From a virus (Duplodnaviria; Caudoviricetes): DNA of 64,000 nt. This document shows positions 1 to 64,000 of this stretch, piece after piece; position 1 is the stretch's first letter, and each line of letters opens with the position of its first letter. Where the stretch lies: the IMG/VR virus record IMGVR_UViG_3300028805_000096, positions 1 through 64,000 of that record. One strand, written 5' to 3'. The notes under the pieces were generated by a model. The model worked only from the letters and a program-made list of their open reading frames with translations. It did no database searches and was not told where the DNA came from. The translations under genes were made by a program, and so were the position numbers.

Positions 1-455
1 TATAAATAATATAATATAGATAGTATAGTGAATAATAAAACATTATATAAACAATTATTAATTAATTAAAAAACTATACATAAAAGATATATACAAAAAC
101 AAGCAATAAATAATATAAAAGTTCTTTTTCTTTTATCTTTTTAAAAAGAAAAAGTAAAAGCCAAAAAGTAAAAGCCCCCAACCTGTCAATAAAATTTTTG
201 ACAGTTGAGTTTCTTCAGTTCAGCACTGGCTGTAAAAAAAATTTTTGACGGACGGAGGAGGGATACCTTCCCACTAAGGAGGGAGATAATTGCTATAGTA
301 TTCTTACGGGGGCTCTGAGTAAAAAAACAAAACGGGGTATTGTACCACGCACCACCGTGGCATTTCGTGGTAAAATCTCTTGAAAAATATAAAAAAATCA
401 TTATACAACGTGGTAATGATACCACGACATCAGTTTATACCTTAAGAAATTAATT

Positions 456-914
456 ATGAAATTTCAGACGAAAAAAGAACTTCTGAGATACCTCTGAAAA
501 AATGAGGACGATAGGAAGCTTGTAGATAGAATGGTAGCGAGATGAGAGGTTAGATTAGAATGAAGGATATATGTATTAGAGGAGAAGGAAGAAGCGGTTT
601 CCAAATCTTCTTTTGATTTAGCAAATCGTTTATCTAGTTTGAGTAACGATTTAGAATACTTAAATAAGGAGTATGAGAGGCTAGAGGGGCTATTAGATTA
701 TTCGCTTAGGAAATGCTATAATATTATGAAGAAAAAGGGGCTAGTAGGTTCTGAGGATACTTATGATGATTTTTATAATAAGATAACAGAATGATACCAA
801 GGAAAAATAGAGGTTAAAACCGAGAACGTGGTAGAATGTGGTAATGGTTGAGAGAAAGATTTAGGTTCAATTGTGAAAACATTTGGGATAATGAAAGCGT
901 CAGATTTGATTTAA
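456..914 (+). CDS. hypothetical protein upstream of terminase (paralogue of 28592-29188)
   Basis: Open with TGA=Gly; N-terminus MKFQTKKELLRYLGKNEDDRKLVDRMVARGEV. Confidence 0.75.
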
Positions 915-931
915 TTTCTTAAACATAAATA

Positions 932-1336
932 ATGGCTGAATTTTTAGATGCAAACAACAAGAATGGAGGTTGAATAATCGACATTCAGAATAAAAACAAC
1001 CACGCTGGAGTGGAGAGAAGAGAAGCTTCAGAGAGGGCTGAAGCGTTACTTAAGCTTATAAATGAATACAGAGTGTATTCGCATAGGTTTGAGAGTTTAC
1101 CTACTTGGGATGTATTAGAGTTTCTGAGCAAGTTAGAGAAGGAGTTATTTAATAGATTTGGGGGAGATGTAGAGAATGGGGAAATAGATAAGTTAAGGAA
1201 TGAGTATTTCTTAGTATTTGGGAAGAAACCCTTTATGGCTTGGGGAGTAGAAGATTTGAAGAAAAGAATAGAACAAGGTAAACCAGAGGAGATTTCAGAA
1301 AAAACTTTACATTCTAAAAAGAGTAGATGGAAGTAA
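932..1336 (+). CDS. hypothetical protein
   Basis: Extends track ORF 1010-1336 upstream through one TGA to the ATG at 932. Confidence 0.7.
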
Positions 1337-1899
1337 AAAGAGAGAACGCACCTAAACGTTGACCTAACGAAAAGACTAAGAACTTAGTAGGGACTAGAGA
1401 GATAGTTAGGGACTGAAAGCCTTGAAGCTGAAAATATAAGTGACCAGATAGATTAGCTGTAAAGAAAGGTTTAACAGAGAAGCAGAAAGCTTTTGTAGAT
1501 GAGTATTTACAGTCACATAATGCTACTGCTGCTTATAGAGCCGCTAAAGGTACTTTAGGGAATAGGGAAGAATGGATAGATAGTGATAGACCTAACTGAA
1601 TGCAGATGAAGAAAGTAGAGAAAGTTAAGGAGTATCTTATACAGAAATTAGCAGATGATGCTGAGTTATGTTTAGAGTTACAGATGGAAATGATACAGAA
1701 TGAGGATATACCAGCTGCCGTTAGGATGGACTGAATAAAAGATAGACTTAATAGATTATGAGTATGAAAGCAGAAAGAAGAGAACCAGTGATTTAGTGGA
1801 ATATGAGAGGTTACTATTACTATTAAACATAAGCAATCTACTGTTGTAGAGGGGGAAGTAGTGGAAGATTTAACTGATAAACCAGAAAACGATGGCTAA
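1327..1899 (+). CDS. terS: terminase small subunit
   Basis: LTEKQKAFVDEYLQSHNATAAYRAA motif; directly upstream of terL; open only with TGA=Gly. Confidence 0.9.
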
Positions 1900-3289
1900 A
1901 CTATTCCAACCTAACTTTGAGATGACTGAGAAACAAGCGGAGGCTTGGGCAGCTCTTACAGATAATAGATATAGGAATATCTGATACTGAGGATGAGCTG
2001 GATGAGGGAAGTCTTATATAGGAGTTATGTGGTTATGGTATATGGCTTGGAGATACCCTTGAACAAGGTGGTTTATCTGACGTAGGGAATTATCTAATCT
2101 TATGAAAACCACAGTTAATACCTACTATAAACTCTGACAAGACTACTGAATACCTAAAGAGTTTATGTGACATCTTGATAAGAAGTATAATATTATAAAG
2201 TTTAGCAACGGTTCAGAAATTCTCTTATTAGACTGTGCCACGCAGCCAGCAGACCCTTTATTCACTAGATTTGGTTCATTAGAGCTTACTGGTTGATTTA
2301 TAGATGAAGCGAATGAGATAGATGAACAAGCTGTTACTATCTTAAAAACTCGTATTGCTAGGCAGAAAAATAGAGAATATGGCTTAATACCTAAGTTATT
2401 ATGCACATTTAACCCAGACCAGTGACGAGTTAAAAGAACTTTCTATACACCACGAAAGTCTTGAACATTGCCAGAAGATACGATATTTATACCATCTTTA
2501 GCGACAGATAATGATTATATAGACCCAGAGTATATCACACAGCTTAGGAACTCAACAGATGAGATTACTAAACAAAGACTTTTATACTGAAACTTTGACT
2601 GGTCTTGAGATGCTGGAAAACTATTTAGACACGATGAGATAGAAGACTTGTTCGAAACTAATGTAGAAAAGAAAGATACAACTTATATCTCAGTGGATGT
2701 TGCTAGGCTTTGAGATGATAAGACTGTTATTTGCATTTGGAGAGGCTTAGAATGTATCAAAATTCTTCATTATGATAAGAATACTATTGATGATATAGCC
2801 AATAGAATAAAGGACTTAGAATACTCTTATTGAGTTGCTAGACATAATATAGTAGTAGATAGTGACTGAGTTTGAGGTTGATTAGCCGATTTGCTTAGAG
2901 GCTGTACAAACTTTGTTAATAATTCCAGACCTTATAGATTTGAGCCAGAGAAAAAATGATTTATCCTTAGAAACTATGCAAATCTAAAAGCTCAATGCTA
3001 CTTTAAACTTAAGGAAATGATGGAAAAGAGGCTTATAAGAGTTTATGCGGACTGAGTTATTAGAGATAAATTATCTGAAGAATTAGAAAATATCTTTATA
3101 TCTGGTATAGATACTGATGGTAAAGTAAAAATAGAGGATAAAAAAGACCTCAAAAGAAGAATAAACCGCTCTCCAGACTTTGCAGATGCTATTATGTTTA
3201 GAATGATATTCTTAGTTCAAGAAACAGAAGCAAATAGTGAGGTAATAACTGGTACTTATGAAATTGATTATGATGACTTGTTGTATTAG
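1892..3289 (+). CDS. terL: terminase large subunit
   Basis: Walker A YGGGAGGGKS (several Gly are TGA), Walker B GFIDEANE, TFNP coupling motif, nuclease ISVDVARLGDD and SPDFADA. Confidence 0.97.
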
Positions 3290-3516: not shown

Positions 3517-3534
3517 TATATATATAAGTAAATA

Positions 3535-3561
3535 AAAAAACACAGTTTAGAACTGTGTTTA
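3535..3561. terminator. inverted repeat AAACACAGT/ACTGTGTTT
   Basis: 9-bp perfect stem flanked by an A tract; lies in the leader of the minus-strand ORF. Confidence 0.5.
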
Positions 3562-4020: not shown

Positions 4021-4180
4021 CGTTCTCTTTATATCTAAAAAAAATAAAAAATCAAGAGAAAATTAACTTTTTTTATTGTTGAAATAATAATATGTCAAGA
4101 TATAAAACAAAAGGTAGCTTGAAATACACTATATTATAGATAATCAAGTGGGTAATAAAGTTTATATTTCCATATATGGT

Positions 4181-6145
4181 ATGAAAATAACAGACGTGTT
4201 AGACCAAGAAAACATAGATAAACTCTTAGCTCAAATTGACAGAGAATATCAAGAATGATTTGATTATGTTGTAAACAAAAGAAATCAATATAGAGATAGA
4301 GTTATCAGATGGAATAAACAAGCAAAAGACCCAAATAAAATCAATATCAATATGATAGCGAATGCAGAAGATGTGCTTATCGCTTCTTCTTATACAGACT
4401 GACTTACAGTTAATTTCGCATCAGCAGATGGTTGGGTATCAGCAGATAAAGCAGATAACCTTAATTATATGGCTGAGTTTGACAATAACGACCAAGACTA
4501 TCAGCAATTATACTACCAAAAAGAGCAAGATAGATACTTCTTCTGAGTAGGTATTAGATATAGATATGGTTGGGATGATGTTAAAAAGATGCCAAAATTT
4601 ATGGTTATCAACCCTCTAAGCTGGATACCAGACCCTATCCCTACACAAATGGGTAGTTTTGATGGTAGTTGATATAGATTTCACTGATTTGAGTTTACTA
4701 CATCTATTGTTGACTTAATCGCTGACTGAAGCTATGATAAAGAGCAGTTAGACAAGGTAGTTTGAGCTTACTTTAGCCCAGAAACACAGCAAAACTGGGT
4801 AGCTTATGCCTCTGCCTACAATTATGTAATGCCAACTTGCTGTGATGACCTAAAAACTAACTTCTCTTTAGATGTTTATCATCACTTTACTAACTTTGAT
4901 GGTAAAAAATATGTAGTTACTCTTACAAATGCTAGAAGAACTGTACTTAGAATAAAGGAATTAAAGCCAGTATTAGAGGAAGAAAAGAAAAACCCTAATA
5001 TGATAGAGTTCCCTATTATACTTAACTACTGGAAACCTAGAAGAAATGACCCATTTGGAGAGAGTATCTGTGACAAATTGGATGATAAACAAATCGCAAA
5101 GACAATATTATTCAACTTAAACATCATAAAAGCCAAAAAAGAAGCTCTAGGTGGAGATTTCATCTGGAACTCAAGACTTATTAAGAACAAAGACGACATC
5201 CTTAAACCTACAACAAATGGTAGAAATATCTTTGTTGACACTATGGAGAACTTATCTAATGTTGGTATGGAGTTGCCTAGAAGTCAAATCAAAGCAGATA
5301 GCATAAATATGATTACTGCTCTTGAAAATGAGGCTATGCACGATACTAATATTGATAGTCTTCAACAAGGTATCGTATCTGGAGGTAGAACTACTGCCAC
5401 AGAAAGCCAAATTGCTCAAGCTAACTCAAATATTATTGGACTTCTTAACAATAAAATCAATGCTTGGGGAGATAAGAGGTTCTGGTTTGAACGATGGAAA
5501 GGTTATCAAGAGAATTTCTCAGAAGTTGATGAGAAATCAGTTGTTATCGTTAGCAATTTCGAAGTAAAATCTTTCCCTATCAAAAAAGATGACTTCTTTA
5601 CTAAGCAAATGCCTCATATTATACTATGAACTAAGGCAGATTTGCAATCAAAGAACGAAAAAGAACAAATCTTCTGGGATAAATACTTATGAATGGTGCT
5701 AAACAACCCTACAACACCAGATGTATCAAAGAGAATAGCACAAAGAATGTGTTTCAGATGTAATGGAAAGACACCTAATGAGATAAATGTTCTTGTTCCA
5801 TTAGAAAATGATGAAACAGTAGCTGTGAACTTTGTTGAAATGATAAATCTTAACCAAGTTCCAAAGTCAATGTTCAGTTATCCACAAGAATATCTTAGAA
5901 CTTTCTGGGTATATTTCCAGAAAGCTGAGAATACAAAGGCTAAAGATGTAGTATTACAAGCATTAAGAAGTGCTATGGTAAGACTACCTTTACAACAGCA
6001 AGTAAACCCAGCCTTTACAGAGATGGCTAATAGCTCTAGCAATATTGCTATGAGCCAAGCTATGCAAAGTGCTGATAAAACTATCACATCAAGGCAAGAC
6101 TTAATACCTTGACAGTGAAGTGCTACTGCTGCATCAATTATTTAA
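4181..6145 (+). CDS. portal protein (P22-like), module 1
   Basis: About 654 codons joining track fragments 4829-5629 and 5693-6112 in one frame through TGA; FPIILNYWKPRRNDPFGESICDKL; follows terL. Confidence 0.88.
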
Positions 6146-6162
6146 CCCTTAATTAAGCAACA

Positions 6163-7702: not shown

Positions 7703-8863
7703 ATGGCAAACAATTTAGATGCTTTTAGTCCAGAATACTGGAGTGCGAGAACTCAAAGACTTTTGAAGAAAAAGTTGATTGCAAGAGAGATAGCTTCAAT
7801 GGAAGAACAAGCTACTCTTAGAGATGGAGATATGGTACATAGACCATATTACTCTGATGTTGTAGTAAACAACTACACTAAAGGAGTTGATGTAACTGTA
7901 CAAGATGTATCAGCTACTGACGAATATTTAGTAGTTAATAAGTCAAAAGAAGCTACTGTATATATCGATGAAATCGATGTTAAACAGAACAAATACGATG
8001 CTGCTAACAAATACATCGACCGTATGACTTATGCTTTGAAGAAAGATATCGATGGTGCTTTCTTACAAGAAGTATTGAACGCTGAATACACAATGGATGA
8101 TGGAGATATGGGTGGAACTGCTGGAAACCCAGTAACTGTATCTGTTGCTAATGTATTCAAACTATTCACTCTTACAGAAGCTAAAATGAATGCAAACGAC
8201 ATCGAAGATACTAAACCTTGGTTCTTCGTTATCACTCCAGATGTTAAAGCTAACATCCAACAAACTAACCTAGTTAATGGTTTCAACCAAGCTGATGCTG
8301 CTTTAAGAGGAACTCTTAAAGGAATGGGATACTTAGGAACTTGGGGTAACTTCAATATCTTCGTATCTAACAATGTAGCTCACTCTAACTTAGTTACAGT
8401 TTCTTCATTAGCTGCTAATGATACATTAACTATCAATGGTGCTACAATTACTTTCAAAGCTGCACCTGCTGCTGCTGGAGAATGTAAACCAACTGCTGCT
8501 GCTTTAATCGGAATGATTAACGGAGTAATGGGAACTGATGGAGATTACGTTGAATTTGCTGCTGCTGATAGAGCTAAATTACTTTCAGTAAATGCTAAAG
8601 GAGTTGCTAACGGTTCAGACGTAGAAATCGTTACTGCTGGTTCAGTTGCTTACTCTCAATCTGGAGTAACTCTAGGAGGAGAAGTAGCTCACTGCTGGGC
8701 TGGACAATATGGATGTTCTGATATGGTTATCCAAAAAGATGTTGCAGTTCAGAAGAACAAAGAACCTAAAAAGACTGGTTACAACTATCTTTGTTGGACT
8801 TTGTACGGAATTAAAACATTCACTGAAGGTGCTAAAAGATGTATTAAAGTTGATGTTGCTTAG
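7703..8863 (+). CDS. major capsid protein
   Basis: 386 aa; FSPEYWSART..., GDMVHRP, TLYGIKTF, typical of P22-coat/HK97-fold capsids; follows scaffold. Confidence 0.93.
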   Translation: MANNLDAFSPEYWSARTQRLLKKKLIAREIASMEEQATLRDGDMVHRPYYSDVVVNNYTKGVDVTVQDVSATDEYLVVNKSKEATVYIDEIDVKQNKYDAANKYIDRMTYALKKDIDGAFLQEVLNAEYTMDDGDMGGTAGNPVTVSVANVFKLFTLTEAKMNANDIEDTKPWFFVITPDVKANIQQTNLVNGFNQADAALRGTLKGMGYLGTWGNFNIFVSNNVAHSNLVTVSSLAANDTLTINGATITFKAAPAAAGECKPTAAALIGMINGVMGTDGDYVEFAAADRAKLLSVNAKGVANGSDVEIVTAGSVAYSQSGVTLGGEVAHCWAGQYGCSDMVIQKDVAVQKNKEPKKTGYNYLCWTLYGIKTFTEGAKRCIKVDVA

Positions 8864-8945: not shown

Positions 8946-9632
8946 ATGAAACCAAGTGAAATAATATCATTAGCCAGAAGGCAGACTGGATGTACTGAGG
9001 ACATTGTAACCACAGAAGAAGCATATCGCTTTCTTAATTTCGTTATAGAAGACTTTGGTGCTGATATAAGGAACTCTGATAGTTGATACTGATTTGATAT
9101 AGAAACTATAAATGTAGTAGCAGGGCAAAGTTCATATACATTCACTAATATAGAATGAGATTTATCTGGTAAATTTCCATTACATAAGATACAAGCAGTA
9201 TGGTTGTATGACATAAACAATAAAAAATGGAGAGATTTGCCAGTTCATTTCGTGGACAAAGTAGATTTAAACAAGCGAGAAAGTGTTAAAGAGCCACTTG
9301 CTTGTTTTATCACAAGAGAGAGCGTTAATTTAATTCCTACTCCAAAGGAAAGCACACAAATGCAAATTCGATGATTTAACTATAATACAGAATTAACTAC
9401 AACTGATAATGAAGAAACAGATATATTTATTCCTGCAAGATGGCATTATATCTTAGTAGAATGACTAAAATACCGAATGTATGGTAATATGTGAGTAAAC
9501 TTTGAAGCCGCAAGAACTAACTCTAGGGCTTTCTATGATAATGAAAAGATTAAAGCTATACAGAACATAGTAGATAGATGACAATTGGCTGATACAGCAT
9601 ACTTTCCAGATTTAAATTACCTTAACTACTAA
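8946..9632 (+). CDS. head-tail adaptor-like protein
   Basis: Position after capsid; LIPTP and WHYILVEGLKYWMYG motifs (W from CGA). Confidence 0.7.
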
Positions 9633-38561: not shown

Positions 38562-39215
38562 TTAGTGGTAGACTAATGTATTTGGTTTCTCTTCCTTTTT
38601 CTTCAGCTCCCGTTCTCTTATTGGAGTGGTTCATTGGTATCAGGATGCTATGCTTTTTTCTAATGTCATAAGCATTCCCTCTTCACAATCCAGTCCATCT
38701 TTCTTTAATTTATTTACCCGCCTGGTTAGCTGTCCCTTGTCGAATTTGCGGATCTTTGGTCATGCTTTGTACTGGTCGAATACCAATGTTAATTCTATTA
38801 CTTTTTGTGGTAGCTGATACTCTATCTCCAATTTGTTTTTTAATTCTTCCAGTTCCTTTTCTTTTATATTATTCTTATTTATAATATTATGTGGAAGATT
38901 TCTTCCACCCTCTCATGGAAGATTTTTTCCACCCTCCTGGAAGTTTTCTTCCACCCTACCAATTTTGATAGTTCTTTTGTTTCATTCTTTCAGTTCTACT
39001 GTAATGTATCCGTGGTTCTGTAGTTCTGTGATGTGTTCTCTGATTGTTCTTCCTGTCACTCCATATTGTTCTGCTATCCGATCGTTTGTTGCTCGGCAGT
39101 ATCATTTTTCTGCACATAGCGAACTTATGAAGCAGAATAGTAGTTTTGCCTTATCCGATAGTTGTTGGTCGAATAGGACTCTGTTTGGCATTATACCATA
39201 TCCCTGATCCAGCAT
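38562..39215 (-). CDS. replication initiator with N-terminal HTH
   Basis: LSDKAKLLFCFISSLCAEKGYCWATNE; contains iterons; directly upstream of DnaB. Confidence 0.88.
38840..38957. repeat. replication origin: three iterons plus AT-rich tract
   Basis: GGAAGATTTCTTCCACCCT, GGAAGATTTTTTCCACCCT, GGAAGTTTTCTTCCACCCT at 38893-38957 inside the initiator gene, as in lambda O. Confidence 0.8.
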
Positions 39216-42779: not shown

Positions 42780-42852
42780 TGCGAGGAGATGCTTTGGTAT
42801 GCATACGACTCTCATAAGGTCGTCGTTCCTGGTTCGAATCCAGGTCTCGCAA
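42780..42852 (+). tRNA. trnM: tRNA with CAT anticodon (Met, or Ile2)
   Basis: Cloverleaf: acceptor TGCGAGG/TCTCGCA, D stem ATGC/GCAT, anticodon loop CTCATAA, T loop TTCGAAT; no encoded CCA. Confidence 0.88.
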
Positions 42853-43360: not shown

Positions 43361-44938
43361 TTAGTATAACTTAGTTCGGCTTATGTCTGGTTGTACTGCT
43401 TCGTTTTTGAATGGTCTTATTGAACAAGCTCTACTTACGGGGTTATAGCCAGGTTGGTCGGCTCTATTAGCATAAGATTGTTGTCTCGCCGCATTTAATC
43501 AATAAGATAAAGCTAACGCAGTAGATGTCCAAATATATGCTGTGGTATCCCTATTCATAGTGCCTCAGCTTTCTGTAAGTCATCAACATAAAGGTATTTT
43601 AAGATATGAGAGATATTTATCTGCTCAATATCATCATTGTCAGCTACCATTTGCAAAATTCCATAATCACATACTATTTCATAAAGTACCTAGTGCAAGC
43701 ATTTCAGTTCTTGATGGGATATGCCATCATTCAGCACAAGGTCATCTTCTAGCTACTAATGTATCTGTTGTATCCCCCCAGAGATTTACATTTTTGCTGC
43801 TGTCCCAATATGTAGCAGTTATATACGTAGATGAGTTATAATAATTATTAGGTCAGTAGTTTTGTGCATTTACTTGTGTAGGACTTGTAGTGGTAGGTCA
43901 AGTAAACGGAAATCAATAGTTGTTTCATCGCTGGTAAAACTTTCAGCAATTACTTTCGCTCATCGTATCTCAACTAGAATATACAGCTGTTGCTCACAGA
44001 TTTTTATCTGCTATTGTTAGCCAAGTGTTTCAATCACTACTCAGACTTATTAAGTCTTCTGTTTTATTCCAATATATTCAAGCTGTTGTTATAGGTGTTG
44101 CACTAGGTCGTACTTTTGTTTCTCATAGATAGACTGCTTTAGCTGCTCATTCTTCTGTTGTTCATTGGCTTACTCATCATCGGAGATTTCAGTTATCTGT
44201 CGTGTCCCATCTATATGGACTTGATGATACAGTTATAAATGTGTCACTTGAATAATAATTTCAAGGTCAATATACACTAGCATCTACTTTTGTGCTAGAA
44301 GTAGTTACACTTCAAGTTCGTGGAAATCAATAATTATTTCATCGTTGATAATATTTTCAACAGTTTGCTTCTGATAAAGTATCTCAACTATTCCATACTG
44401 TAGTAGCTCATAAGTTTTTATCTGCTATTGTTATCCAAGTCTGTCAGTCACTACTTAATGAAATTAATCACTTTGAGCTATTCCAAAATATTCATCAGCT
44501 TTCTATACTCGTTCAATATAGCTTAGTCCAAGAAGACATAGGCACAACAGGGGAATTCTTGAAACAACGGACAGAGGAACCGTACGTACGGCGGTAGACA
44601 TCCTGAGGATTAAGAGTATCCGAATTGAAGTACAGGTTGTACGCGTAATTAGTATTGCTACGCGAAGAGGACCAATAGTACCCGTAGGAACCCTGACCGT
44701 AAGCACCAGCAGACGAGTTGCTACGGTAACCAGCGAAAGGCAACTTTAATGCTATTCAAAAGTTAGTTCAGTCTGAACTTCATCCACCTAAAGCTGTTCG
44801 GATATTTCTTACAGTTTGCCATTCTGTATTAAGTGGTACGTGGAACCCATCAGGACAAGGTCACTGCATATCACTTATAGTTATACTTCATCAAGCATAC
44901 AGATTTTTTATCTCTTTATCTCATATATAAATACTCAT
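43361..44938 (-). CDS. receptor-binding protein with two Fib_succ_major-like (C-type lectin fold) domains; DGR target
   Basis: GPCPDGFHVP, LPFAGYR, YWSSS, SVRCFK, TIADKNLGA, GKYYQWG. Confidence 0.88.
44569..44740 (-). repeat. DGR-type variable repeat VR-A
   Basis: Aligns to VR-B at offset 910; differences concentrated at codon positions 1-2. Confidence 0.8.
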
Positions 44939-44963: not shown

Positions 44964-46340
44964 TTAGTCTGTTACAATAGTTATCACATTACTAGATGTT
45001 CAACTAGCTGGTGCTGATGTGGATGTTACTATCTTGTAGAGCTGGTCTCAAACTACTAGGTTTCAAGATACTGTCTGAATTCAAGTTACTCATCACCAAA
45101 GATTTCAATTATCTGTCGTGTCCCATCTTCAATTATATTTTATGAATGTATCACTTGAGTAATAATTTCAAGGTCAATAACTACTTGCATCTACTTGAGT
45201 TGTACTTTGATTTGCTATTGTTCAAGTTCGTGGGAATCAATAATTATTTCATCGTTGATAATATTTTCAACAGTTTGCTTCTGATAATGTATCTCAACTA
45301 TTCCATACTGTTGTGGCTCATAAGTTCTTATCAGCTATTGTTATCCAAGTAGTTCAATCTGAGCTTAATGATATAAGTCAATCTGCAGAACTCCAAAATA
45401 TACCACCTGCTTCTATACTTGTTCAATATAGCTTAGTCCAAGAAGAATTAGGTATAGCTGGGGAATTCCTAAAACAACGTACAGATAAACCGCGCGCACG
45501 GGTGTCGCTATCCTGAGGACGAAGAGCAGTCGAAACGAGGAGCAGTTTGTACGCGCTATAACTATAGTAACGCGAAGAGGACCAATAGTACCCGGTGGAA
45601 CCATGTTCGCTAACACTAGCATCGCCGTAATTACGGTAACCAGCGAAAGGCAGCTTTAATGCTATTCAAAAGTTAGTTCAGTCTGAACTTCATCCACCTA
45701 ATGCTGTCCATACATCATAAACAGCTTGCCATTCAGTTGTTAAAGGTACGTGAAATCCACTAGGTGCAGGTCACTGCATAGCTGTGTAATCTTTTCACTC
45801 ATACGTACCATCCAATCAGATTTCATCATTTGTTATATCTATTCAGTTTCCTGCTGTATAGTTACCACCTGTTTGGATAGTCACATCTCCATACTGTCAG
45901 TTTACACTTGTGACTCAGGTATTTGAAATAGTGTTTCAGTTAATTCAGATTCATGTACCTGGTGTTAGTGTATTTTGTTTTCCCGCTATTGTAGTATCCA
46001 TAGAGCTGATTTTGTCGTAGACAGCGTTTTTACTTGGAGCTTGTGTTGTGTCTCAATTCCATGATGATCCATAAGCTACATCACTTATTATTTGTGGATA
46101 GTCTATATTTACCTCTGTTATGTTTGTTACTTGTCAGAGATTGTTGGTTGTGATTTGTGGAACTTTCTGTCCTGTACCTTTTGCAGTATATGCTGTTTGT
46201 GTATCCAATGTATTTTGTTTTCAGCTTAGGTCTATATTTGCTGTTCCGTTAGACATAACACTAGTTCAGTCGACTTTTACATCTTCTACGGGGAAGTTGT
46301 AATCTGTGTTATTGAATTTAAATTTTTTGAGTCTAGCCAT
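44964..46340 (-). CDS. tail fibre with Fib_succ_major-like domain; DGR target
   Basis: Fibre stalk (APSKNAVYDKI, KQNTL) plus the same lectin-like domain. Confidence 0.88.
45479..45650 (-). repeat. DGR-type variable repeat VR-B
   Basis: Counterpart of VR-A; GC-rich island with mostly A-free invariant codons. Confidence 0.8.
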
Positions 46341-46344
46341 TATA

Positions 46345-52364: not shown

Positions 52365-52820
52365 TTATGGATTGTATGGATCTGGTTGTTTTGGTTTTTG
52401 AGTTTGGGCATCTATTATAGCATTCAGTCAATATAGTTGTTTGTCTGTAGCTTGTTGATCCGTGATATTGAATCAATTGTATTTTTCCCGTCATCAAGAG
52501 TTTTTATTTTCGACTCTTTTTCGCATATATACAGTTATTGACGGTTGATAATTTGATGCTCATGTCGTCACTTTTACCGTTCATCATTCCTCTCACTGTG
52601 TTATATCTTGTTGAGATAGAGCAGCAGCTCATAGTTCTTTTTCTGCATCTTTTAGGTTTACATTTTGTGACGTATCATCTACACATACCAAGCACCTCCC
52701 CTTTCAGAAAGGTACTCGATATGTTCATTGCCATATTCCAGATGGTATCATTTTATCTGTTGTTATGTAGATTGCTCACACTGGGAATGGGCATTCTATA
52801 CTATATGAATTATAATCCAT
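52365..52820 (-). CDS. baseplate/tail-tip-like protein
   Basis: FPVGAIY, GTYWVPFGKGRCLV, YQPSITVYMWKR (W from CGA). Confidence 0.8.
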
Positions 52821-54758: not shown

Positions 54759-57700
54759 TTAGTCTTCTGATGTTCAAGCTCATCCTGCACGATATTCGTC
54801 TCCATAGTTGTTTGAGTTAAGTATCTCTCGTTGCCTGTCTGTTAGTTCCGTACTTCATTCTTCTCTATTTTCTCGTTCTATTTGTCTTTTGAGTAGGTCT
54901 TGTAGCACTCTTAGTTCAGACAAATCTTGTGCGTATAATTTTTTTCAGTTATCTTGTCGTTTTTTCTTTAGCTCATCTATTCTTTTTTGAATTTGCTCTG
55001 TTGTATAGTCTCATAGTCCTGGTTCTTTATTTACTGTACCATCTTTTGCTACGTCTACTAGTGGAGTTCATCATGTTGGCTTATTTGGTTCTGGTTTCTT
55101 TGGAGTAGTTGGTTCTTCTGGTTTATCTCATCCTTTGTTTTTCTTGGTTCTTGGATTTACTTTATCCATATTCCATAATAGTACATAGTCGTGAGATGTT
55201 TCTACTCAGTCATATTTTGTTACATCTCTCATAGTTTCTATTACTTCTTTGTTTGATTTTCCAGATTCTCATTTTATGAAGCTTGATAGCTCAGCTAGTG
55301 GTACATATTGCCACATTTCGTTTGGTTCTATTCAGAGTTTTTCACTTATCTGTTTGATTTTTTCTTCTGAGATAGTTGTTCCCTCTTTTGCTATCAATAA
55401 TCCTTTACCGTCTATTGTGTATTGGTGCTTCTTATCTGTGTATGCATTATCTGATTTTGTACTTACGGATAGTCCTATTCAGTTTGGATCGTCCTTTGTT
55501 TTGTCTAGGTCGAATTCTTTTATATTTGAATCACTTGCGTGGTAGAATTCTTTATATGGAGACAGTGTGTTTGTGAACTCTATTTTTTCTCTATCCGTCA
55601 TTTCTCATCTTGCGTCCGTTCCTCATTTGTAGAATAGGCTGTCTTCTATTTCTTTATTTATCTGATTCAACTGCTTTCTTTCTTCCTTGGATAGTTTATC
55701 GGTTTTAGTTTCTTTTTCTCATTCTGCGACTTTTTCGGACGATACTACCTCTGTTTTCTCGTTATTTTTTTGATATTCTGGTTTATATATGTTTTCTTCT
55801 ACCCACGCCATTTGCGTTTCTGTCAATCCTTTATTTCATTGGAATGAGTCGTATTCTCATATTTTCTTTCAGTCCTTAAACACAGTCACGAATGGTGCAC
55901 CTATCTGTGTCTCTGGATCGTATCATTCTACCTCCATTGATATTCATTCTAGTTCTTTGCTTCTTTGTTCTTCAGTTATTTGTGGAGTCTCATTCTGGTC
56001 TAAGTTTTGTCTTTCTTCTTCTATCTTCTCTGCCTCCTTTATTTCTTCAGCCTCTACCTCTTTTGGTTTAGCGAATTGTCCTTGTTCTTCGTATGTTAGT
56101 TTGTCGAATTCGTCTGATATCTTATCCATCTGTTTTGTGTATTCTCTCTTATTCTCTCTGTATGGAGTTTCTGACCTCTTTTTGTCTAATCTCTTATATT
56201 CGTTTGCTAGTTCAGTTTTTTGAGCTTTGAGTTCTTCCTTTGCTTGTATCTCTACGTTTGCTTGTTCTATTATTTGGTTTAGCTGAGTTTTCTCTTCTTC
56301 GGATAATCTCTTTCTCTTGTTTAATCTTTCCTGTGCGACTCTTGCTCTTGTTTTAGGACTCTCTAATGTTGCGATTTTGTCTACAGAGCTTGTATAGGTA
56401 ATGTTCTGTGACGCTTTTTTACCCATATCTGCTCTTAGCGTATCTGTCTTTGCTTTGTCGGATCTATAGAATCCTTTATATCATTTTGCATACTTTTGAG
56501 CTTGCTCTCATTCTTCTGGAGTGATTTGGCTTTCTATTCTGTCATATTCTTCAGTAGTTTCCAGAGTATCGAAGTCTCTATTCGTTTCTCTTACCATATC
56601 TTCCCTCTGTTTTTCTCGTCTCTTGTCTCATTCACGTTCCATTTGGTTTCCTTTGTAGATTCATGCTATTTCTTTTTGTGCTTGTTGCTGGTCTGGAGAT
56701 TGCATGATTTCAGCTTGTGTGTTTTGTCTTCTAGCTTTTTCTAGTGCTGATTTTGCAGCTTCTATGTCTACGTTTGGATATTTCTTTGGATTAGCGACAA
56801 CTTCTTCAAGGTCTTTGATATCTGCACCATCATAGTTTGTTGTTTCTTCTGGAGCTCATTCCTCGATTTCCATGATGAATTCTTCTATTGAAGATGGCTC
56901 TTTTTGGATTTCTTTTGCGATGTTTTCATCTGTGAGTTCTTCTCCTTTTTCTATTACTTTATTTGTTGCATCTTCTTCTATTATGTCTGCAGTTTCGTTT
57001 AGACTCTTCTCCAATATGTCTGCCACTTTCTCTGCTTCTGGAGAATATGTTGTTTCCTCAGTCTTTCAAAGTGATGCGTCGATTATTTGTTGCTCTGCTT
57101 GATTATATCCTTGCTGTGTTTTTTCCTTGTCTTTGTATGTTTCTTTTACTCATCTATCTTCTGGTAGAGTGAATGTATCTGTAGCTTCTACTCATCCTTG
57201 TGTTGATTCTGGGAGTCTTGGAGTTGTATCTCATACTCATTGACTTCTTAGATATCTTTCCCACTCGGCTTGTTTTTGTTCTCTGATTTTTGCTGCCTGT
57301 CTATCTATCAATATTTGTGTAGCGTCATCTAGCAGTTTATCTATCTCTGCTTGTGTTTTTCACTCTGCTATTTTTGATAGCTCGTTGTATCTTTCTATTT
57401 CTCCTTTCTTGAAGCTAGCTTTTGTGTTTCAGTCTACTTTTAGAGCTTCTACGTATTGGTTATATAAATCTCGGTCTAGCTTTGTTTTAACTGCTTTGGA
57501 TTTTAGTGCGTTTCATAATCTTTCTAAAGTAGTGAATCCTAGTGATCCGAGAACGAATCCTCATCGTCATCCTACAGTTGATGCTAGCATTACTCATGCG
57601 TATCTTATCCAGTTTCCTAGCCATACACGAGTTTGTTTATACTGTGTCTTTGCTTTTATTGTACTATTTACAATGTCTGGAGAATATTTTGTAAGCTCTA

Positions 57701-60700
57701 CCAGTTTTTTTATTCCTGGTAGGATATTCTCCATCTGGTCTAGTGTTCCTTTCTCATCTCGCTTTAGTATTTGATTCTTTGCGTTATCTTTTAGCATTGA
57801 ATCTTTTCATAGTAGGTCTGATAGTACTTCAAGGTTTTCTGAAAGTTCAGCATATCCTTGGTCTATCTTGCGTAGCATTTCAGATGATCCTTGTTGCTCT
57901 AGGAATTCGTTCCATCTCTCATATAACGCTTTTTTTATTGCTTTAGGGAAATTACCAGAGCTATCCCAATCTCCTTTTGAAGTGAAGTTTGTTCTGATAT
58001 TGTGTGCGTCTTTTTCTGATATCCATGATTTTTCTGTGATTATATCTGTCATGGATTCTATATATTTTGCTACAGCTCTTTCATTTGCAGACAATACTCT
58101 ACCGTCATTTGCTACTACTGCTCTTTTTGGATTTCCTTTGTCATCTAGTCGTTCTATATATTCAAGTCCGTTTTCTCTTAATAATCTTTGGAATGGTTCA
58201 CTATATAGGAATTGTCTTGATCTTATATTCTTTTGTGTAGATAGTGCATCATATAGCTTTCATATAGCTTTCTTCATTTGTTGGATTCTATCCACGTATT
58301 TTTGCATTCTTGTGAGTCCGTCTGATAGAACTTCTCTTTGGATTTCATCATTGGACAATTTATCTTCTAGCCTTGTGTCTTTTACGTTTCATTTCTTATC
58401 TGTGATTTCAGATACAAGTCTGTCTACTATTCTAATAACAGAATCAGTGAATGGATTATTCTCCACTACTTCTATTTGCTTCTCTGTAAGTCACTCTCTT
58501 CTGAATAGCTCATCCCTTGCCTCTCTCTCTTCAATTTCTTTTCTTGTTTGTTTTTCTAGGTCTGGTTTGAATATATTATCTACTGCTTCTTTTGCGTTAT
58601 CTTCTATGTCTTTCATTAAGTCCAGTATCTTTGCAATAGTCGTCTTTACTTCTTTTGCTCATTCTGTTTCTTTTACTTCGGCTGTTCATTCTACTGTTTC
58701 TGGTGCTTCCGTTACGGCTTCTTTTACTCTGACTTCAGGATCTGGCATTGCCTCAGATTCTATAGTAGTTTCTCTCTGTGGTTCAGCAGTAGTTTTAGTT
58801 GGTTCTTGTACACTAATCTCTGTAACATCTCTTACTGTTTCTGGGATATTTTCCACTACTTCTCACTCTGCTACTCTTAATTTTTGAGAATCTTTGAATA
58901 GCTTTGATGCAGTTTCGAATAGAGTATCTAGTATTGTTTCTCATCCTGTTTCTTCTTTGATCTTTGCGGCTTCTTCCTGGAATGTTTTATGAAAATTATT
59001 TAAGGCATCTTGGAATACTGCCTTTGTTATTTGCATCTTATATTTAGCTCATTGTAGATCTACATCTACCTTAGATTTTACATCCTTTGCTTTTGATTCT
59101 ATCTTTCATGTAGTATCTCAGGCCTCTTCTGGAAGCTTTGGAGTAGTAGTTCTTCTTATTTTTTCTTTTTCTTTAAGAACATCTACCAACTTTGCACCTG
59201 CTTTGATTCTATCTGTATAGACTTTTACAGCTCTACCTATTGCTGTCTTATATTTGAGATAGTCTACTCATTTTCTACCTAGGATCTTGAGTCATTGTGC
59301 TATTTTTATTGCTGATACTGCGGATACAGCTTCTCCATATTTTTCTATTGTTTTTTCATTCCATCAGTCAGAAAATCAGATGAGATTTCATAGTCATATT
59401 GCTATATCTGCTATTCCACCCATTACGTAGTTGAATACGTTATCTATTTTAGCTCATATATATGGGAGTCCTGTCGCTGTTGTGAAAGCAACTCCTCCTG
59501 GAGTTAGAGACATTATTCCAGCGAATACTGTTGATGGGATATCGAATCAGATTCTTCATAGTTTTTCATAGTCTACGTTAATTTGGTCGAAGAAATTTCT
59601 ATCACTATCTCGATCGTTTACTGTTCTATCAATGTCATAGTCTAGGTCTGATAGTTGATTTCAAAGATTTATCCATGAATCAACCAAAGCTCTAGATATT
59701 CATTTTGAAACTTCATCTTGTTTGATTTCATTTCAATTTGTGTCATAGTATTTACCGTCTTCTTCATATGCGTTTCAGAACATTAGGGAATATAGTTTGT
59801 CTTTTATCCAAGAACTATCTCCTGTGTATGTTTCTTTTAGCATAGCATTTATTTTGCTATTGAAAGACTCACTAATGTATTTGTTTGCATAGTCTGATAG
59901 TAGTCTGTTATATTCTATTGTGTCTCATGATTCTATTGTTTTCCTCAATTCTCTTAAGCTATTCATTTGAGTATCGTATGTTTCCTGGATCTTATTCAGT
60001 TCATTTGCAGTAAGATTGAAATTAGTGTAGGTATTGAATGCGTCTTGTAGTTCTTTTATATCTGCCTCTCATTTGTTTGCAGCAAGTACGGATCTTACTA
60101 GGTTGTAGTCTGATGCTCATGATATGTTATATCCAAGCTCGTTAAACTGGTTTGCTGCGTCTTTTATTATCATTGCAGATTGGATGTATTTTGTTATTTC
60201 TTCTGGAGTTCTTCATTCAAGCTTCTCTGCTCATCAAGCGAATGCAGATATTCAATATGCGATAATATCTTCATCCGTTAATGCTTCTAGTAGGGAATCT
60301 TGTTTGTTGGCATAGTTATCATTAACTGACAGAGCACCATAAAAGTCTGCATATTGGTTTATATCTCTTCTGTTATCTGTCTCTACGTCATATAGACAGT
60401 CTTGAATAAATGCATTTATTGTATCATCTGACACGTCTTGCCATTCTGGATATGTTTCTTTGATTTGTTCCGCAGTCAGAACTCCTCAGTTTTGAGCGTA
60501 TTCATATGTTATTGAGTTATATGCGTCTCACAATGTTGATGTAGAGTCGAGTGATCTTACTATTGGCTTTGATACAATAGTATTCCCGTTTGTTAGATAT
60601 ACAGTATCTCATTCGTTATTTGTCCATCATTCGTTCAGTCATTTATCTATTCCAAGACTCTTTGCCAATACATCTATTGGAGATGTTCATGTTCTAACTC

Positions 60701-61094
60701 ATTCGAATAGTAGGTCTCCTTTGTTTCCCTTTTCTTCTACTTGTTTTGATATTTCATAATCTTCGGCTATCATCTTTGACCCTTGCTCGTATGCTGTTCC
60801 TATATCTTTTCATGCTATTTTTGATGTCACTCTTTGTACTCATTGCTTTGCTACGTCCACTATATTTCTTGGACTTTCCACGTATTCTATTTCTTTAAGC
60901 TGAGACTTTTGTTCTGGAGTCGTTTCGGATATTGTCGTAGATGGGTATTTGGGAGCTTGAGATTCTATTATATTAGAAACTCATTTAGGTATTTCTATGT
61001 CTGGTGTAGGCGTACCTGTTCATGTTGATAGCTTTTGAACTGAATTACTTCTTGCTTGCTGCTCTGCTAAGAATTTTTTTCAAGATGTTGCCAT
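54759..61094 (-). CDS. giant (about 2111 aa) ejected/polyvalent protein with C-terminal ART-like domain
   Basis: All minus-strand track fragments share one frame; FYHAS motif near 55540; continuity only spot-checked. Confidence 0.7.
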
Positions 61095-61113
61095 GTTTTA
61101 TGTTGAATTTTGG

Positions 61114-63666
61114 TTAAAAGTTCATCACAGGTTTGATTACAGTTCCTGTATTATTATTGGCTTGGTATGCTCATTGGCTACTGAAGTTTGATTTACTCAT
61201 CTCTGGGATAGCTGGTCAGTTGGTTATGGTCCTTACTTGCTCTGCCAAGATATCTATTGCAGATCTTGATTTTTCATCTAATCCCTCTTTTTTTAAGTAT
61301 CTCATGAGCTCTTGTTTATTTGCTCGGAAGTCATATGGATTACCCTTTACGCTTTCGTATGCCTTGAGTAGTTCTGTGTATGTTGTTGGTCAGATTACGT
61401 CTGCGTATTTTGTATTTATCGTTGTTAACATTCCATCTAATGCTCAGTTTATGATTGCAGTGTTAAGTTCTTTACTATTCTTTGTGCTAGGGAAGATTGA
61501 TTGATATTCTTTGGTTTCTTTTTCAGAGAATCATGCACCTGTAATAGCTTTCCTATAATTAATGATAGCTGTATTTATTTGAGTTGCAAGAGCTCTAAGT
61601 TTTGGATCTTTTACTTCTCCTATCTTTTCTGCCACATCTTCTTCTAGTCCTGCAAATAGTGATGTTTCTCATCCCATTTTTTCATATTGGTCTAATGCTA
61701 TTTGAATAGATGCAAGTTGTCCTAGTGCGTTTTGTGCTGCATTAAGTTGGTTCTTTTCGTCTTGTCCAAGTCATGATACTGATTTTGAAAGGATATACTC
61801 CAATGCACCATCATAGTTTCAGGAATCCACAAATTTCTTCACATTATCTGTGAATTGTCATTGGAATGCTACGGATCGGTTTGGATTTACTGCTAAATCT
61901 GCTGCAGTCGTAAATGCAGTATTTGCTTCTTGATTAGATGTTCCAGGAGTAGTTTGCTCTGCTGTTCAAGGAGTATAATATCATGTCACATCTGATAGCT
62001 TATATGTAGTGTATCCTAATCCCATTTTGTTTGAACCGTTACTATCGAGCAATGTTACAGTTCATTTTTTTGGATCTATGCTTACTACTATTCCTGTATG
62101 TCAGTATTTTTTTGTATTTCATGTTGCTCGGCTTTGTGTTCAGTCGAAGTATGCTATAGCTCATTCTGTAGGATATTTAGCTGTAGCGTAAGGTGCAAGG
62201 TCTTTTGCTTGGCTTATCTTTAAATTAGAACCTAAGAATCATAGATATTCATTTACTGGTTCTCCGCACCATCATTGTCTGATTGCTCATCCACTTGCTA
62301 TTAGGTCTTTATATGTTGTTACAAAGTTGTTGTATGCGGTTTGAACATTGGCTGTTCCTCATCATGTGAGTTCTGATACATCATATCCATAGTTCGCTGC
62401 GATGAAGTTTTGCATAGCTTTTTGTCTTTCATTTGCATCTTCTATTCCTTGTATATATTTTAATACAGCGTCAGACATTGCTGTTGATGTACTTCCTTGG
62501 AGTTTTGATAGAGCTTTCAAGTTATCCTCTGCTGTTAATATCTTGTTATCTATCTCTTGGAATTGTTGCAATACTGAAAGTTGTATAGATTTCACAGCAT
62601 CGTCAAAATCTTCTCATAGTCTTTGTATGTTTGTATTGTAATCTTGTATTGCTCTTATGTATGAAGCTCTTTGTTTTAGAGATGAGTATATGTAGTTATT
62701 TTCTAAGTCGTCCATGTTTTGTTGGTATCCTTTTTCTACTCTCTGAATCATATATTCTGATCCGCTTCTGTCTGCTATTGCACTCCCTACGCTTGCTGCT
62801 CGTTTTTCGTCGAACATACTTCTTTTTAGTGTTTGCATTGCAGAATTAAATTGAGCGTCTAGGTTTGTTTTGGCTAGGTTATAATCTTCCATAGTTCTTT
62901 GGAGGTTTATATCGTAGTCTTCTTCTGCTCTGAAGAAGTCTTTTAGTTGTTCTTGTGCGAATTCTTCTCCTATGGATACAAGCTCGCTTGCTTTACCTTG
63001 TTGTATTTTTCTTACAACTTCCTGGTCTACTCAAAGCTGGTTTGCTATTGTTGCAGTATCATATATTCATGCTGTGTATGCTTTTTGTATCTCTTTGATT
63101 AGGTTGTTTATATCTGCTACGTTTGTGCTTCCTGTAGTGTATTGATAGTTTTCACTTGCGAGTTTTAATGATCCCAGACCTTTTATGCTATCATTGAGTT
63201 GAGATACTGCTTTTTGGAATGTTGCGTCTGCGTTTGTATCGTCTATCTTTGGTTCGTACATATCAAAATTACCTTTTGCTTTAAGGTCCAAAGTAGAGTT
63301 TGGAGTAGTGGTTGTTGCCTTTGTTGGTTCTACTATTCAATTTTTATTGTTCTCGGAAGTGTTAGAAAGGATTTCTAGCATATTATTATAATCTACACTT
63401 CATTGTCATTGATTTTGACCTAGAGCGTATTCTTCTCTCCTTGTTGCGTTGTTTGTACTAGGAGAAGATGGATTCGCTCCATCTATTTTTGCACTACCAC
63501 CATTCATTGTTTTGCTTGGCTGTGCATTTGCTGTGGCTTCACTAGTATTTGGTGCTATAGTACCTCATTTATTTCCTCAATATACGATGTCTTCGTGTCA
63601 GAGGTATTTTCAGTTTTTATCATAGACTATACCATCTTTTACTGTGTGTCAATATTGGTTTGCCAT
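61114..63666 (-). CDS. DNA ejection protein with CHAP-like domain (about 61970-62300)
   Basis: GWCGEPVNEYL...AIAYFDG...YGHTGIV...LLDSN; homologous to 11925-14861. Confidence 0.8.
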
Positions 63667-63670
63667 TTGT

Positions 63671-64000
63671 TTAGAATTTATCGGATAAATCGAAGTTTCC
63701 TACAGGTGTTGCACGTATTGCCAATCCTGAAAGGTAAAGGTCTGCACCTGGTGTCTCAGACTTTATTTGTACTCTTATTCTCTTTCCCTTTCTCCTTACC
63801 ATTGCTTGGTCTAGGACTAAGTCTATTGGGAATAGTAAATTGTTATATTCGTTTACTACGTCTCTGTCAGTTGGATCGTATTCTGGTATTTCTGGTCCTC
63901 ATACTTCTATTTGTAGTCTCTGGTATGTATCGTATATTTGCTGTCGGTTTACTTTCTTATTGCAGATTTGTTTTCCGTCCACATAAACATTTACTTCGAA
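63671..64000 (-). CDS. C-terminal part of a tail tubular / stabilisation protein (truncated by the window)
   Basis: Open frame ending KGKRIRVQIKS...; lies upstream of the ejection protein, as in module 1. Confidence 0.6.

What the first reader, a model, noticed from the sequence alone, without database searches (positions are those of the whole stretch)
1..64000. Phage using a doubly recoded code: TGA=Gly and CGA(/CGG)=Trp
Seen: TGA fills invariant Gly positions (terL Walker A, DnaB ARTGGGKT, primase VEGE). CGA aligns with TGG between paralogues inside this window: SWTKLY (TGG 44528, 45438; CGA 43376), NLWGG (TGG 45096; CGA 44180), xWTALGG (TGG 45708; CGA 44798), and GFIxWLV (27.8 vs 34.7 kb). 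CGA also sits at family-invariant Trp sites: HNH NCRWAT (33119), VYMWKR (52521), initiator GYCWA, terL DQGWV (2426). CGG sits at the HNH RLYxIW site (33326). Known: table 25 covers SR1 and Gracilibacteria, and CGA/CGG to Trp was reported for Absconditabacteria by the Codetta screen. Inference: an Absconditabacteria phage carrying the Arg-to-Trp reassignment, which table-25 annotation would mistranslate. I know of no description of this in phages.
Basis: partly seen in the sequence, partly recalled or inferred. Interest (0 to 1): 0.85.

Follow-up and report, generated by a model that had tools for sequence, protein, structure and literature searches.

The report
Phage DNA reading CGA/CGG as tryptophan
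This phage DNA reads the stop codon TGA as glycine and the arginine codons CGA and CGG as tryptophan. That is the code predicted for Absconditabacteria (SR1) bacteria, so table-25 or table-4 annotation mistranslates about a third of its tryptophans.

Summary

Three tests support CGA/CGG = Trp:
- **Codon pairing with 38 related contigs.** 36 of 61 variable CGA/CGG sites have TGG in a relative, against 6 of 389 Arg-codon sites (p = 1.5e-30).
- **Distant homologues.** They carry Trp opposite CGA: HNH W in 114/120 and 108/120, second terminase 97/120.
- **Controls.** The same method gives CGA/CGG = Arg in standard-code relatives and in relatives from Gracilibacteria-type bins.

CGT, CGC, AGA and AGG remain Arg. 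TGA is the main Gly codon.

ARAGORN finds one tRNA gene in the phage, tRNA-Met, so decoding probably depends on the host. A genome of the same class holding a related contig has Trp-type tRNA(UCG) and tRNA(CCG). Absconditabacteria as host is inferred from the code; no CRISPR spacer link was found.

The host code was published in 2021, phages following an AGG=Met host were noted in the same paper, and this scan already found the same code in other phage DNA (e1-4462552, e1-2924734). I file it as a new member of a known kind.

Also seen: the contig holds two phage genomes, CGA/CGG is enriched in early genes, and public protein sets translate these phages with TGA = Trp.

The parts
1..64000 (.). 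Phage DNA written with TGA=Gly and CGA/CGG=Trp. It is the first 64 kb of a 77,336-bp contig.
   Evidence: 880 in-frame TGA, 73 CGA, 18 CGG and 210 TGG in the ORF set.
1892..3289 (+). Large terminase of phage A, with TGA in the Walker A motif and CGA at 2426 and 2453.
   Evidence: Pfam Terminase_6N. In relatives, 2426 pairs with CGA 17, TGG 5 and CAC/CAT 7; 2453 pairs with CGA 19, TGG 2 and Tyr/Phe codons 8.
4148..6145 (+). Portal protein of phage A, with CGA at 5492.
   Evidence: PHROG portal. Site 5492 pairs with TGG 11 and CGA 14 in relatives.
7703..8863 (+). Major head protein of phage A, with no TGA and no CGA/CGG.
   Evidence: PHROG major head protein. 0 of 30 Gly codons are TGA and 0 of 5 Trp codons are CGA/CGG; relatives show the same tendency.
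8946..9632 (+). SU10-type adaptor, with three CGA codons.
   Evidence: Pfam SU10_adaptor. Site 9369 pairs with TGG 10 of 14; site 9474 pairs with TGG 9, CGA 3 and CGG 2.
27642..28013 (-). Small early protein, paralogue of 34565-34918. The GFIxWLV motif has TGG here.
33062..33760 (-). HNH endonuclease with 3 CGA, 1 CGG and no TGG.
   Evidence: PHROG HNH. Among 120 homologues, CGA170 aligns with W in 114, CGA214 with W in 108, and CGG145 with W 75, Y 29 and F 11.
33747..34265 (-). NinG-like protein with 3 CGA, 3 CGG and no TGG.
   Evidence: Pfam NinG. CGA81 aligns with W 57; the listed R rows are mainly its nearest relatives. CGG159 aligns with Y 86, W 13 and R 13. Site 34025 pairs with TGG in 6 of 6 relatives.
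34565..34918 (-). Paralogue of 27642-28013. The GFIxWLV motif has CGA here.
35825..36718 (-). Toprim primase, with VEGE Gly encoded by TGA.
37526..38536 (-). DnaB-type helicase, with TGA inside the Walker A motif ARTGGGKT.
38562..39215 (-). Replication initiator with 1 CGA, 3 CGG and no TGG.
   Evidence: Site 39095 pairs with CGA 4 and TGG 1; site 39080 (CGG) pairs with TAT/TAC 5.
42780..42852 (+). tRNA-Met (CAT), the only tRNA gene ARAGORN finds in the 77-kb contig.
   Evidence: ARAGORN. Rfam tRNA at 43.7 bits.
43361..44938 (-). Tail-fibre-like protein with a Fib_succ_major domain, 7 CGA and 14 TGG.
   Evidence: Its paralogue has TGG where this gene has CGA. In public homologues, six of the seven CGA columns are mainly W or W plus R.
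44964..46340 (-). Paralogous tail-fibre-like protein.
52365..52820 (-). Gp10_C baseplate protein, with CGA at 52521 in VYMWKR.
   Evidence: Pfam Gp10_C and motif position. Not checked against homologues.
54759..61094 (-). 2111-aa virion protein with 79 TGA and 9 CGA.
   Evidence: No relatives were fetched for this gene.
61114..63666 (-). CHAP-domain protein with 4 CGA and 1 TGG.
   Evidence: Pfam CHAP. Site 62802 pairs with TGG 3 and CGA 2 in phage-B relatives.

Best explanation
The contig is phage DNA that is translated correctly only under the code predicted for Absconditabacteria (SR1). UGA is glycine, CGA and CGG are tryptophan, and CGU, CGC, AGA and AGG stay arginine. UAA and UAG are the only stops. 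ARAGORN finds no tRNA for UGA or CGR in the phage, only a tRNA-Met, and none of the roughly 40 proteins scanned matched a release factor or an aminoacyl-tRNA synthetase. I therefore infer that it relies on the host's tRNA-Gly(UCA), on the host's lack of RF2, and on the host's tRNA(UCG) and tRNA(CCG), which carry tryptophan identity elements. About 30% of Trp codons are CGA or CGG, ranging from 18% to 64% by gene module. The new meaning of the codons is shown here from sequence comparison. Who decodes them, and the identity of the host, are inferred.
For: (1) Site-level codon pairing against 38 related contigs: 36/61 variable CGA/CGG sites have TGG in a relative against 6/389 Arg-codon sites (p = 1.5e-30). 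44/100 variable TGG sites have CGA/CGG in a relative. Only 3 of 389 variable Arg-codon (AGR or CGY) sites pair with CGA/CGG (raw tables).
(2) Distant homologues: HNH has W in 114/120 and 108/120 opposite CGA and W/Y/F in 115/120 opposite CGG. The second terminase has W in 97/120 opposite CGA83.
(3) Paralogues inside the window interchange CGA and TGG.
(4) Controls: standard-code relatives (L041, L042, L044, L045) have no in-frame TGA, and their CGA/CGG aligns with Arg/Lys codons. Relatives from Gracilibacteria-type bins (L043, L109, L112, L115, L116) have TGA=Gly but their CGA/CGG aligns with Arg/Lys codons.
(5) TGA pairs with GGT, GGA and GGG and sits in Walker A glycines.
(6) tRNAs: genome G056, which holds a related CGR=Trp contig, has tRNA(UCA) with Gly features. 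Its tRNA(UCG) and tRNA(CCG) have G73, G1:U72 or A1:U72, and no A20. G001 and G002 have Arg-type tRNA(UCG) with A73.
(7) ARAGORN finds a single tRNA gene in the phage, tRNA-Met.
(8) The published host code matches, and its codon frequencies are in the same range (PMC8629427).
Against: There is no peptide evidence, so partial or ambiguous Arg/Trp decoding cannot be excluded. According to a 2026 preprint, the Arg-codon reassignments have still not been verified experimentally. A few CGA/CGG sites align with variable or charged columns (NinG positions 139 and 151, second terminase position 405 in distant homologues), although position 405 is TGG in 4 close relatives. Evidence for CGG rests on fewer sites (16 variable sites, 6 with TGG, 2 with Arg/Lys codons). 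No CRISPR spacer match or near-identical tRNA-Met was found in 401 sampled genomes of the class. Only window 1-20000 was used for the spacer search.
Confidence: 0.92

Rival explanations
1. Plain table 25: TGA=Gly only. CGA/CGG are still arginine, and the CGA/TGG alignments are tolerated Arg/Trp replacements.
For: Some CGA/CGG sites lie in variable columns that hold R, K or E in distant homologues. Public translations show R there by construction.
Against: CGA/CGG almost never pairs with AGA, AGG, CGT or AAA, while true Arg codons do. Near-invariant Trp columns stand opposite CGA. The same method returns Arg in relatives with other codes.
Confidence: 0.02
2. CGA/CGG are decoded ambiguously, as a mixture of Trp and Arg, or differently in different hosts or at different infection stages.
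For: No proteomic data exist. CGA/CGG is avoided in the major head protein and under-used in late genes. That would fit a codon that is costly or error-prone.
Against: Genes with no TGG at all (HNH, NinG, initiator) put CGA/CGG at conserved Trp positions. This would be hard to sustain with substantial Arg misincorporation. The CGR=Trp-type genome G056 has dedicated Trp-type tRNA(UCG) and tRNA(CCG), and no Arg-type tRNA for these codons was seen in it.
Confidence: 0.05
3. The code is as described, but the host is not Absconditabacteria. It is another lineage, for example an undescribed Gracilibacteria branch, with the same two changes.
For: No direct host link was obtained. The one bin that holds a clade member (G001) uses the standard code, so that contig is mis-binned. 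Some Gracilibacteria are predicted to read CGG as Trp (PMC8629427).
Against: CGA=Trp together with UGA=Gly is reported only for Absconditabacteria. Relatives from Gracilibacteria-type bins read CGA as Arg.
Confidence: 0.12

Closest known systems
Absconditabacteria (SR1) genetic code: UGA=Gly (Campbell 2013) plus CGA/CGG=Trp (Shulgina & Eddy 2021, PMC8629427)
   Same: The same three codon meanings. CGA is more common than CGG and both are rarer than UGG. GC content is low (35.7%). AGA is the main Arg codon. CGU and CGC remain Arg.
   Different: Described for bacterial genomes. Here it is seen in phage genomes that carry no decoding tRNA of their own.
[quoted passage not shown] 2023, PMC10746230)
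   Same: Dense in-frame TGA=Gly in nearly all genes, both early and late, and no suppressor tRNA.
   Different: Those studies analysed only table 25 against table 11. Neither arginine nor Codetta is mentioned. Under table 25 about 30% of Trp residues would be read as Arg.
Phages predicted to read AGG as Met like their recoded Bacilli hosts (Shulgina & Eddy 2021)
   Same: A phage follows a host sense-codon reassignment and lacks the decoding tRNA.
   Different: A different codon, amino acid and host phylum. Here the sense-codon change is combined with a stop-codon change.
Stop-codon-recoded phages of standard-code hosts (Lak, crAss-like; codes 4 and 15)
   Same: A phage genome unreadable under table 11.
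   Different: Those phages often carry suppressor tRNAs and sometimes release factors or synthetases, and their recoding covers fewer genes, interpreted as a mid-infection switch of code. Here no such genes were found, and TGA is used in early and late genes.

Membership tests
Absconditabacteria-type code (UGA=Gly, CGA/CGG=Trp) | In-frame UGA at glycine positions | tested here: met
   TGA pairs with GGT, GGA and GGG in relatives. It encodes Walker A glycines. It is the most used Gly codon.
Absconditabacteria-type code (UGA=Gly, CGA/CGG=Trp) | CGA at tryptophan positions | tested here: met
   30 of 45 variable CGA sites have TGG in a relative and 3 have Arg/Lys codons. W in 114/120, 108/120 and 97/120 distant homologues.
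Absconditabacteria-type code (UGA=Gly, CGA/CGG=Trp) | CGG at tryptophan positions | tested here: met
   Fewer sites. 6 of 16 variable CGG sites pair with TGG and 2 with Arg/Lys codons. CGG in relatives aligns with window TGG 28 times and with CGT 4 times. HNH CGG145 aligns with W 75, Y 29 and F 11.
Absconditabacteria-type code (UGA=Gly, CGA/CGG=Trp) | CGU, CGC, AGA and AGG remain arginine | tested here: met
   CGT pairs with AGA, AGG and CGC. AGA pairs with AGG, AAA and AAG.
Absconditabacteria-type code (UGA=Gly, CGA/CGG=Trp) | tRNA(UCA) with Gly identity, and tRNA(UCG)/tRNA(CCG) with Trp identity (G73, no A20) | tested here: inconclusive
   The phage encodes none of these. They are present in genome G056, which holds a distantly related CGR=Trp contig. 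The actual host is unknown.
Absconditabacteria-type code (UGA=Gly, CGA/CGG=Trp) | Peptide-level proof of Trp at CGA/CGG | not testable with these tools
NCBI translation table 25 | All sense codons standard apart from UGA=Gly | tested here: not met
   CGA and CGG behave as Trp.
Phages of Absconditabacteria | Host link through CRISPR spacers or a prophage site in an Absconditabacteria genome | tested here: inconclusive
   Searching 401 genomes of the class with window 1-20000 gave only short matches, mostly to promoter-like motifs and a low-complexity repeat, and no clear spacer. No tRNA-Met match was found. The bin G001 that holds clade member L040 uses the standard code.
Stop-recoded phages of standard-code hosts (codes 4 and 15) | Phage-encoded suppressor tRNA, release factor or synthetase, and recoding covering only part of the genes | tested here: not met
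   ARAGORN finds only tRNA-Met. TGA is present in nearly all ORFs on both sides of the genome.

The most novel reading that the evidence does not exclude
Use of the reassigned Trp codons is partitioned by expression programme. It is also lineage-tracking. Early and replication genes write 49-64% of their Trp as CGA/CGG, late virion genes only about 20-30%, and the major head protein avoids both TGA and CGA/CGG. This holds in two unrelated phage lineages. In addition, one terminase family spans three codes (standard; UGA=Gly; UGA=Gly with CGR=Trp), with CGR=Trp appearing in at least two branches. If real, the first pattern would mean that the new codons carry a translational cost or a timing role. 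The second would mean that phage lineages have repeatedly crossed or followed a sense-codon boundary.
Probability: 0.3. Interest if true: 0.65.

Novelty: new member of a known kind. Interest (0 to 1): 0.5.

Why it matters
**Annotation.** Every pipeline that reads these phages with table 11, 4 or 25 produces wrong proteins. The public gene calls for relatives reproduce only with TGA=Trp. In the tail-fibre family the database shows W at 64% of TGA (Gly) columns and a W/R mixture at Trp columns. That degrades homology searches, structure prediction and host prediction for a phage group abundant in these metagenome collections.

**Independent evidence for the host code.** The Arg-to-Trp reassignment in Absconditabacteria is still only a computational prediction. 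Two unrelated phage lineages place CGA/CGG at conserved Trp positions of essential enzymes. That is independent, virus-side evidence that the cell really decodes these codons as Trp.

**A host-range marker.** The contrast with relatives from Gracilibacteria-type bins, which read CGA/CGG as Arg, makes this codon pair a simple marker for assigning code-25 phages to one host group or the other.

Tried and rejected
- **PDB sequence searches** with NinG and terminase A gave nothing usable.
- **Relatives of phage B in IMG/VR.** Searches with the phage-B adaptor/portal-like protein and with the second terminase found none. A search with the methylase found two distant loci. Relatives were reached instead through the search for homologous proteins and the look-up of encoding contigs.
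- **Host link through a bin.** The GTDB bin holding clade member L040 (G001) is a standard-code genome with Arg-type tRNA(UCG), so the contig is mis-binned and gives no host.
- **CRISPR spacer search.** BLAST of window 1-20000 against 401 genomes of the class gave only short matches, mostly to promoter-like motifs and a low-complexity repeat, and no clear spacer.
- **Phage tRNA-Met** had no close copy in those genomes.
The sample type, the junction between the two phages and expression could not be examined, and read laying was not used.
- **Rfam at gathering threshold** on the whole window missed the tRNA-Met, which scores 43.7 bits when searched locally. The count of tRNA genes therefore rests on ARAGORN.
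- **Strand composition as the cause of the early/late CGR bias** was rejected. In phage B and its relatives both modules lie on the same strand.
Full report
**What the DNA is.** The window is the first 64 kb of a single 77,336-bp contig held as a virus record. GC content is 35.7%. Under table 11 the long frames are broken. With TGA read through, long ORFs cover most of the window. These ORFs hold 880 TGA, 73 CGA, 18 CGG and 210 TGG codons.

Annotated genes:
- Phage A: terminase 1892-3289, portal 4148-6145, major head protein 7703-8863, SU10-type adaptor 8946-9632.
- Minus-strand early block: HNH 33062-33760, NinG 33747-34265, primase 35825-36718, DnaB 37526-38536, initiator 38562-39215.
- Second virion module on the minus strand: tail-fibre paralogues 43361-46340, adaptor/portal-like protein 50444-52342, Gp10_C 52365-52820, a 2111-aa protein, and a CHAP-domain protein.
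- Beyond the window: a second terminase at 72594-74183 and a ParB-methylase at 75186-76526.

**Checking the observation.** The two tail-fibre paralogues show CGA in one copy where the other has TGG, at xWTALGG, NLWGG and SWTKLY. TGA encodes four of the seven Gly codons of the terminase motif GYGGGAGGGKS, one Gly of DnaB ARTGGGKT and the Gly of primase VEGE.

**Test 1: codon substitutions among relatives.**
- Terminase A retrieved 30 related IMG/VR contigs at 48-95% identity.
- Relatives of the second phage were reached through the protein database and their contigs fetched.
- I aligned every window ORF to these loci by tblastn and read off the aligned codons.
- CGA pairs with CGA 139, TGG 94, CGG 12, Tyr/Phe/His codons about 40, and AGA only 3.
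- AGA pairs with AGG, AAA, AAG and CGT. CGT pairs with AGA, AGG and CGC.
- Counting sites rather than sequences, 36 of 61 variable CGA/CGG sites have TGG in some relative, against 6 of 389 Arg-codon sites (Fisher p = 1.5e-30).
- 44 of 100 variable TGG sites have CGA/CGG in a relative. Only 3 of 389 variable Arg-codon (AGR or CGY) sites do.
- A CGA-to-TGG change needs two base changes, so this pattern is not mutational proximity.

**Test 2: distant homologues, mostly standard-code.**
- HNH protein against 120 homologues: CGA170 has W in 114, CGA214 has W in 108, and CGG145 has W 75, Y 29 and F 11.
- Second terminase: CGA83 has W in 97 of 120. The R entries are its five closest relatives plus one other.
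- At the codon level those five closest relatives carry CGA or TGG at this site.
- NinG columns are less conserved but mostly aromatic or hydrophobic. Two sites are uninformative.
- Position 405 of the second terminase aligns with R/K in distant homologues, yet it is TGG in four close relatives. Two TGG sites in the same protein also fall in R/K columns, so this is alignment noise.

**Test 3: controls with the same method.**
- Standard-code relatives of the terminase (Bacteroidia, Moraniibacteriota, Gammaproteobacteria and Cytophagaceae MAG contigs) have no in-frame TGA. Their CGA/CGG aligns with Arg or Lys codons of the window.
- A contig binned with a Gracilibacteria MAG (L043), and four further terminase relatives in genomes of that class, have in-frame TGA but CGA/CGG aligned with Arg/Lys codons.
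- Two others (L113 in G337, L114 in G056) have CGA/CGG aligned with TGG and aromatic codons.

**Decoding machinery.**
- ARAGORN finds one tRNA gene in the 77 kb, tRNA-Met(CAT) at 42780-42852.
- Genome G056 has a tRNA(UCA) with Gly-type acceptor features.
- By my reading of the sequences, its tRNA(UCG) and tRNA(CCG) carry G73, G1:U72 or A1:U72, and U rather than A at position 20. These are the Trp criteria used by Shulgina & Eddy.
- G001 and G002 have tRNA(UCG) with A73 and an Arg-type D-loop.
- In the two bins that share their phage-like contig's TGA usage, the contig's reading of CGA/CGG matches the identity of the bin's tRNA(UCG). Those bins are G002 (Arg) and G056 (Trp). The third bin, G001, is standard-code and its recoded contig is mis-binned.
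- That the phage relies on such host tRNAs is inference.

**Host.** UGA=Gly together with CGA=Trp is reported only for Absconditabacteria. The codon frequencies here are about 38 CGA, 9 CGG and 109 TGG per 10,000 codons. That is close to the published range, though those figures were measured on aligned Pfam domains. I found no direct link:
- No clear spacer match for window 1-20000 in 401 sampled genomes of the class.
- No close copy of the phage tRNA.
- The one bin holding a clade member uses the standard code, so that contig is mis-binned.

**Comparison with the literature.**
- The host code was published by Shulgina & Eddy in 2021. The same paper reports two phage assemblies that read AGG as Met like their hosts.
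- Borges et al. and Liu et al. describe code-25 phages of Absconditabacteria but consider only TGA.
- Three full-text searches found no description of CGA/CGG=Trp in phages.
- Earlier reports of this scan reached the same reading on a 42-kb phage and on an SR1 genome with a prophage-like element. I did not re-test those.

This is therefore an expected but undocumented corollary of a known code: a new member of a known kind.

**Additional observations.**
- *Two phage genomes.* The contig has two terminases. Relatives of A sit on contigs of about 41 kb, and relatives of B on contigs of 47-50 kb with the same gene order. The contig is probably a partial A joined to a complete B, either as a chimera or as a recombinant. 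Both use the same code.
- *Early/late bias.* CGA/CGG makes up 64% of Trp codons in the early block, 18% in A late genes and 30% in B late genes. The bias recurs in B relatives on one strand and in ten A relatives (124/255 against 84/414).
- *Code-neutral genes.* The major head protein has no TGA and no CGA/CGG, and this low use is conserved in relatives.
- *Tree.* A quick, midpoint-rooted terminase tree puts the 28 CGR=Trp contigs of this clade together, next to a code-25/CGR=Arg pair. The second CGR=Trp pair sits in another branch with a CGR=Arg relative. This suggests at least two changes of state. The careful tree search did not finish and several branches are long.

Noticed in passing
window 1892-3289 (+) and contig 72594-74183 (-) (L031:12594-14183): The contig has two large terminases and two virion modules. 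Relatives of the first sit on contigs of about 41 kb. Relatives of the second sit on 47-50 kb contigs with the same gene order. The 77-kb contig therefore looks like a partial phage A joined near 26-28 kb to a complete phage B, either as an assembly chimera or as a recombinant.
   Followed up: partly
window 26046-39585 (-) compared with 456-25677 (+) and 42951-64000 (-): CGA/CGG supplies 64% of Trp codons in early and replication genes, but 18% and 30% in the two late modules. The same bias appears in relatives of both phage lineages, including ones where early and late genes share a strand.
   Followed up: partly
window 7703-8863 (+) and 40804-41664 (+): The major head protein (0 of 30 Gly codons are TGA; 0 of 5 Trp codons are CGA/CGG) and a PD-(D/E)XK-type exonuclease (0 TGA, 0 CGA/CGG) are readable under the standard code. 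Low TGA use in the head protein is conserved in relatives.
   Followed up: partly
L034-L039 and proteins P0391-P0510: Public gene calls for relatives reproduce only with TGA=Trp. In the tail-fibre family, database sequences show W at 64% of TGA columns and a W/R mixture at Trp columns. These proteins are therefore doubly mistranslated in public sets.
   Followed up: yes
L041-L045 and L109-L116 (terminase relatives): One terminase family includes contigs with the standard code, contigs with TGA=Gly and CGR=Arg, and contigs with TGA=Gly and CGR=Trp. A quick tree needs at least two changes of the CGR state.
   Followed up: partly
window 4026-4077, 3622-3690 and 370-405: Short stretches of 25-45 nt match dozens of genomes of the Gracilibacteria class at 85-96% identity. 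They look like a shared promoter or leader motif.
   Followed up: no
window 21098-22654 (+): A 518-aa ORF in which 120 codons (23%) are TGA. It is an extremely glycine-rich protein written mostly with the reassigned codon.
   Followed up: no
L040 (genome G001): A 33-kb recoded phage contig sits in a 0.9-Mb bin whose other contigs use the standard code and whose tRNA(UCG) is Arg-type. The contig is probably mis-binned.
   Followed up: yes
window 42780-42852: The Rfam search of the whole window at gathering threshold returned nothing, yet the tRNA-Met scores 43.7 bits when the region is searched alone. The fast filters can lose tRNAs in this DNA.
   Followed up: yes
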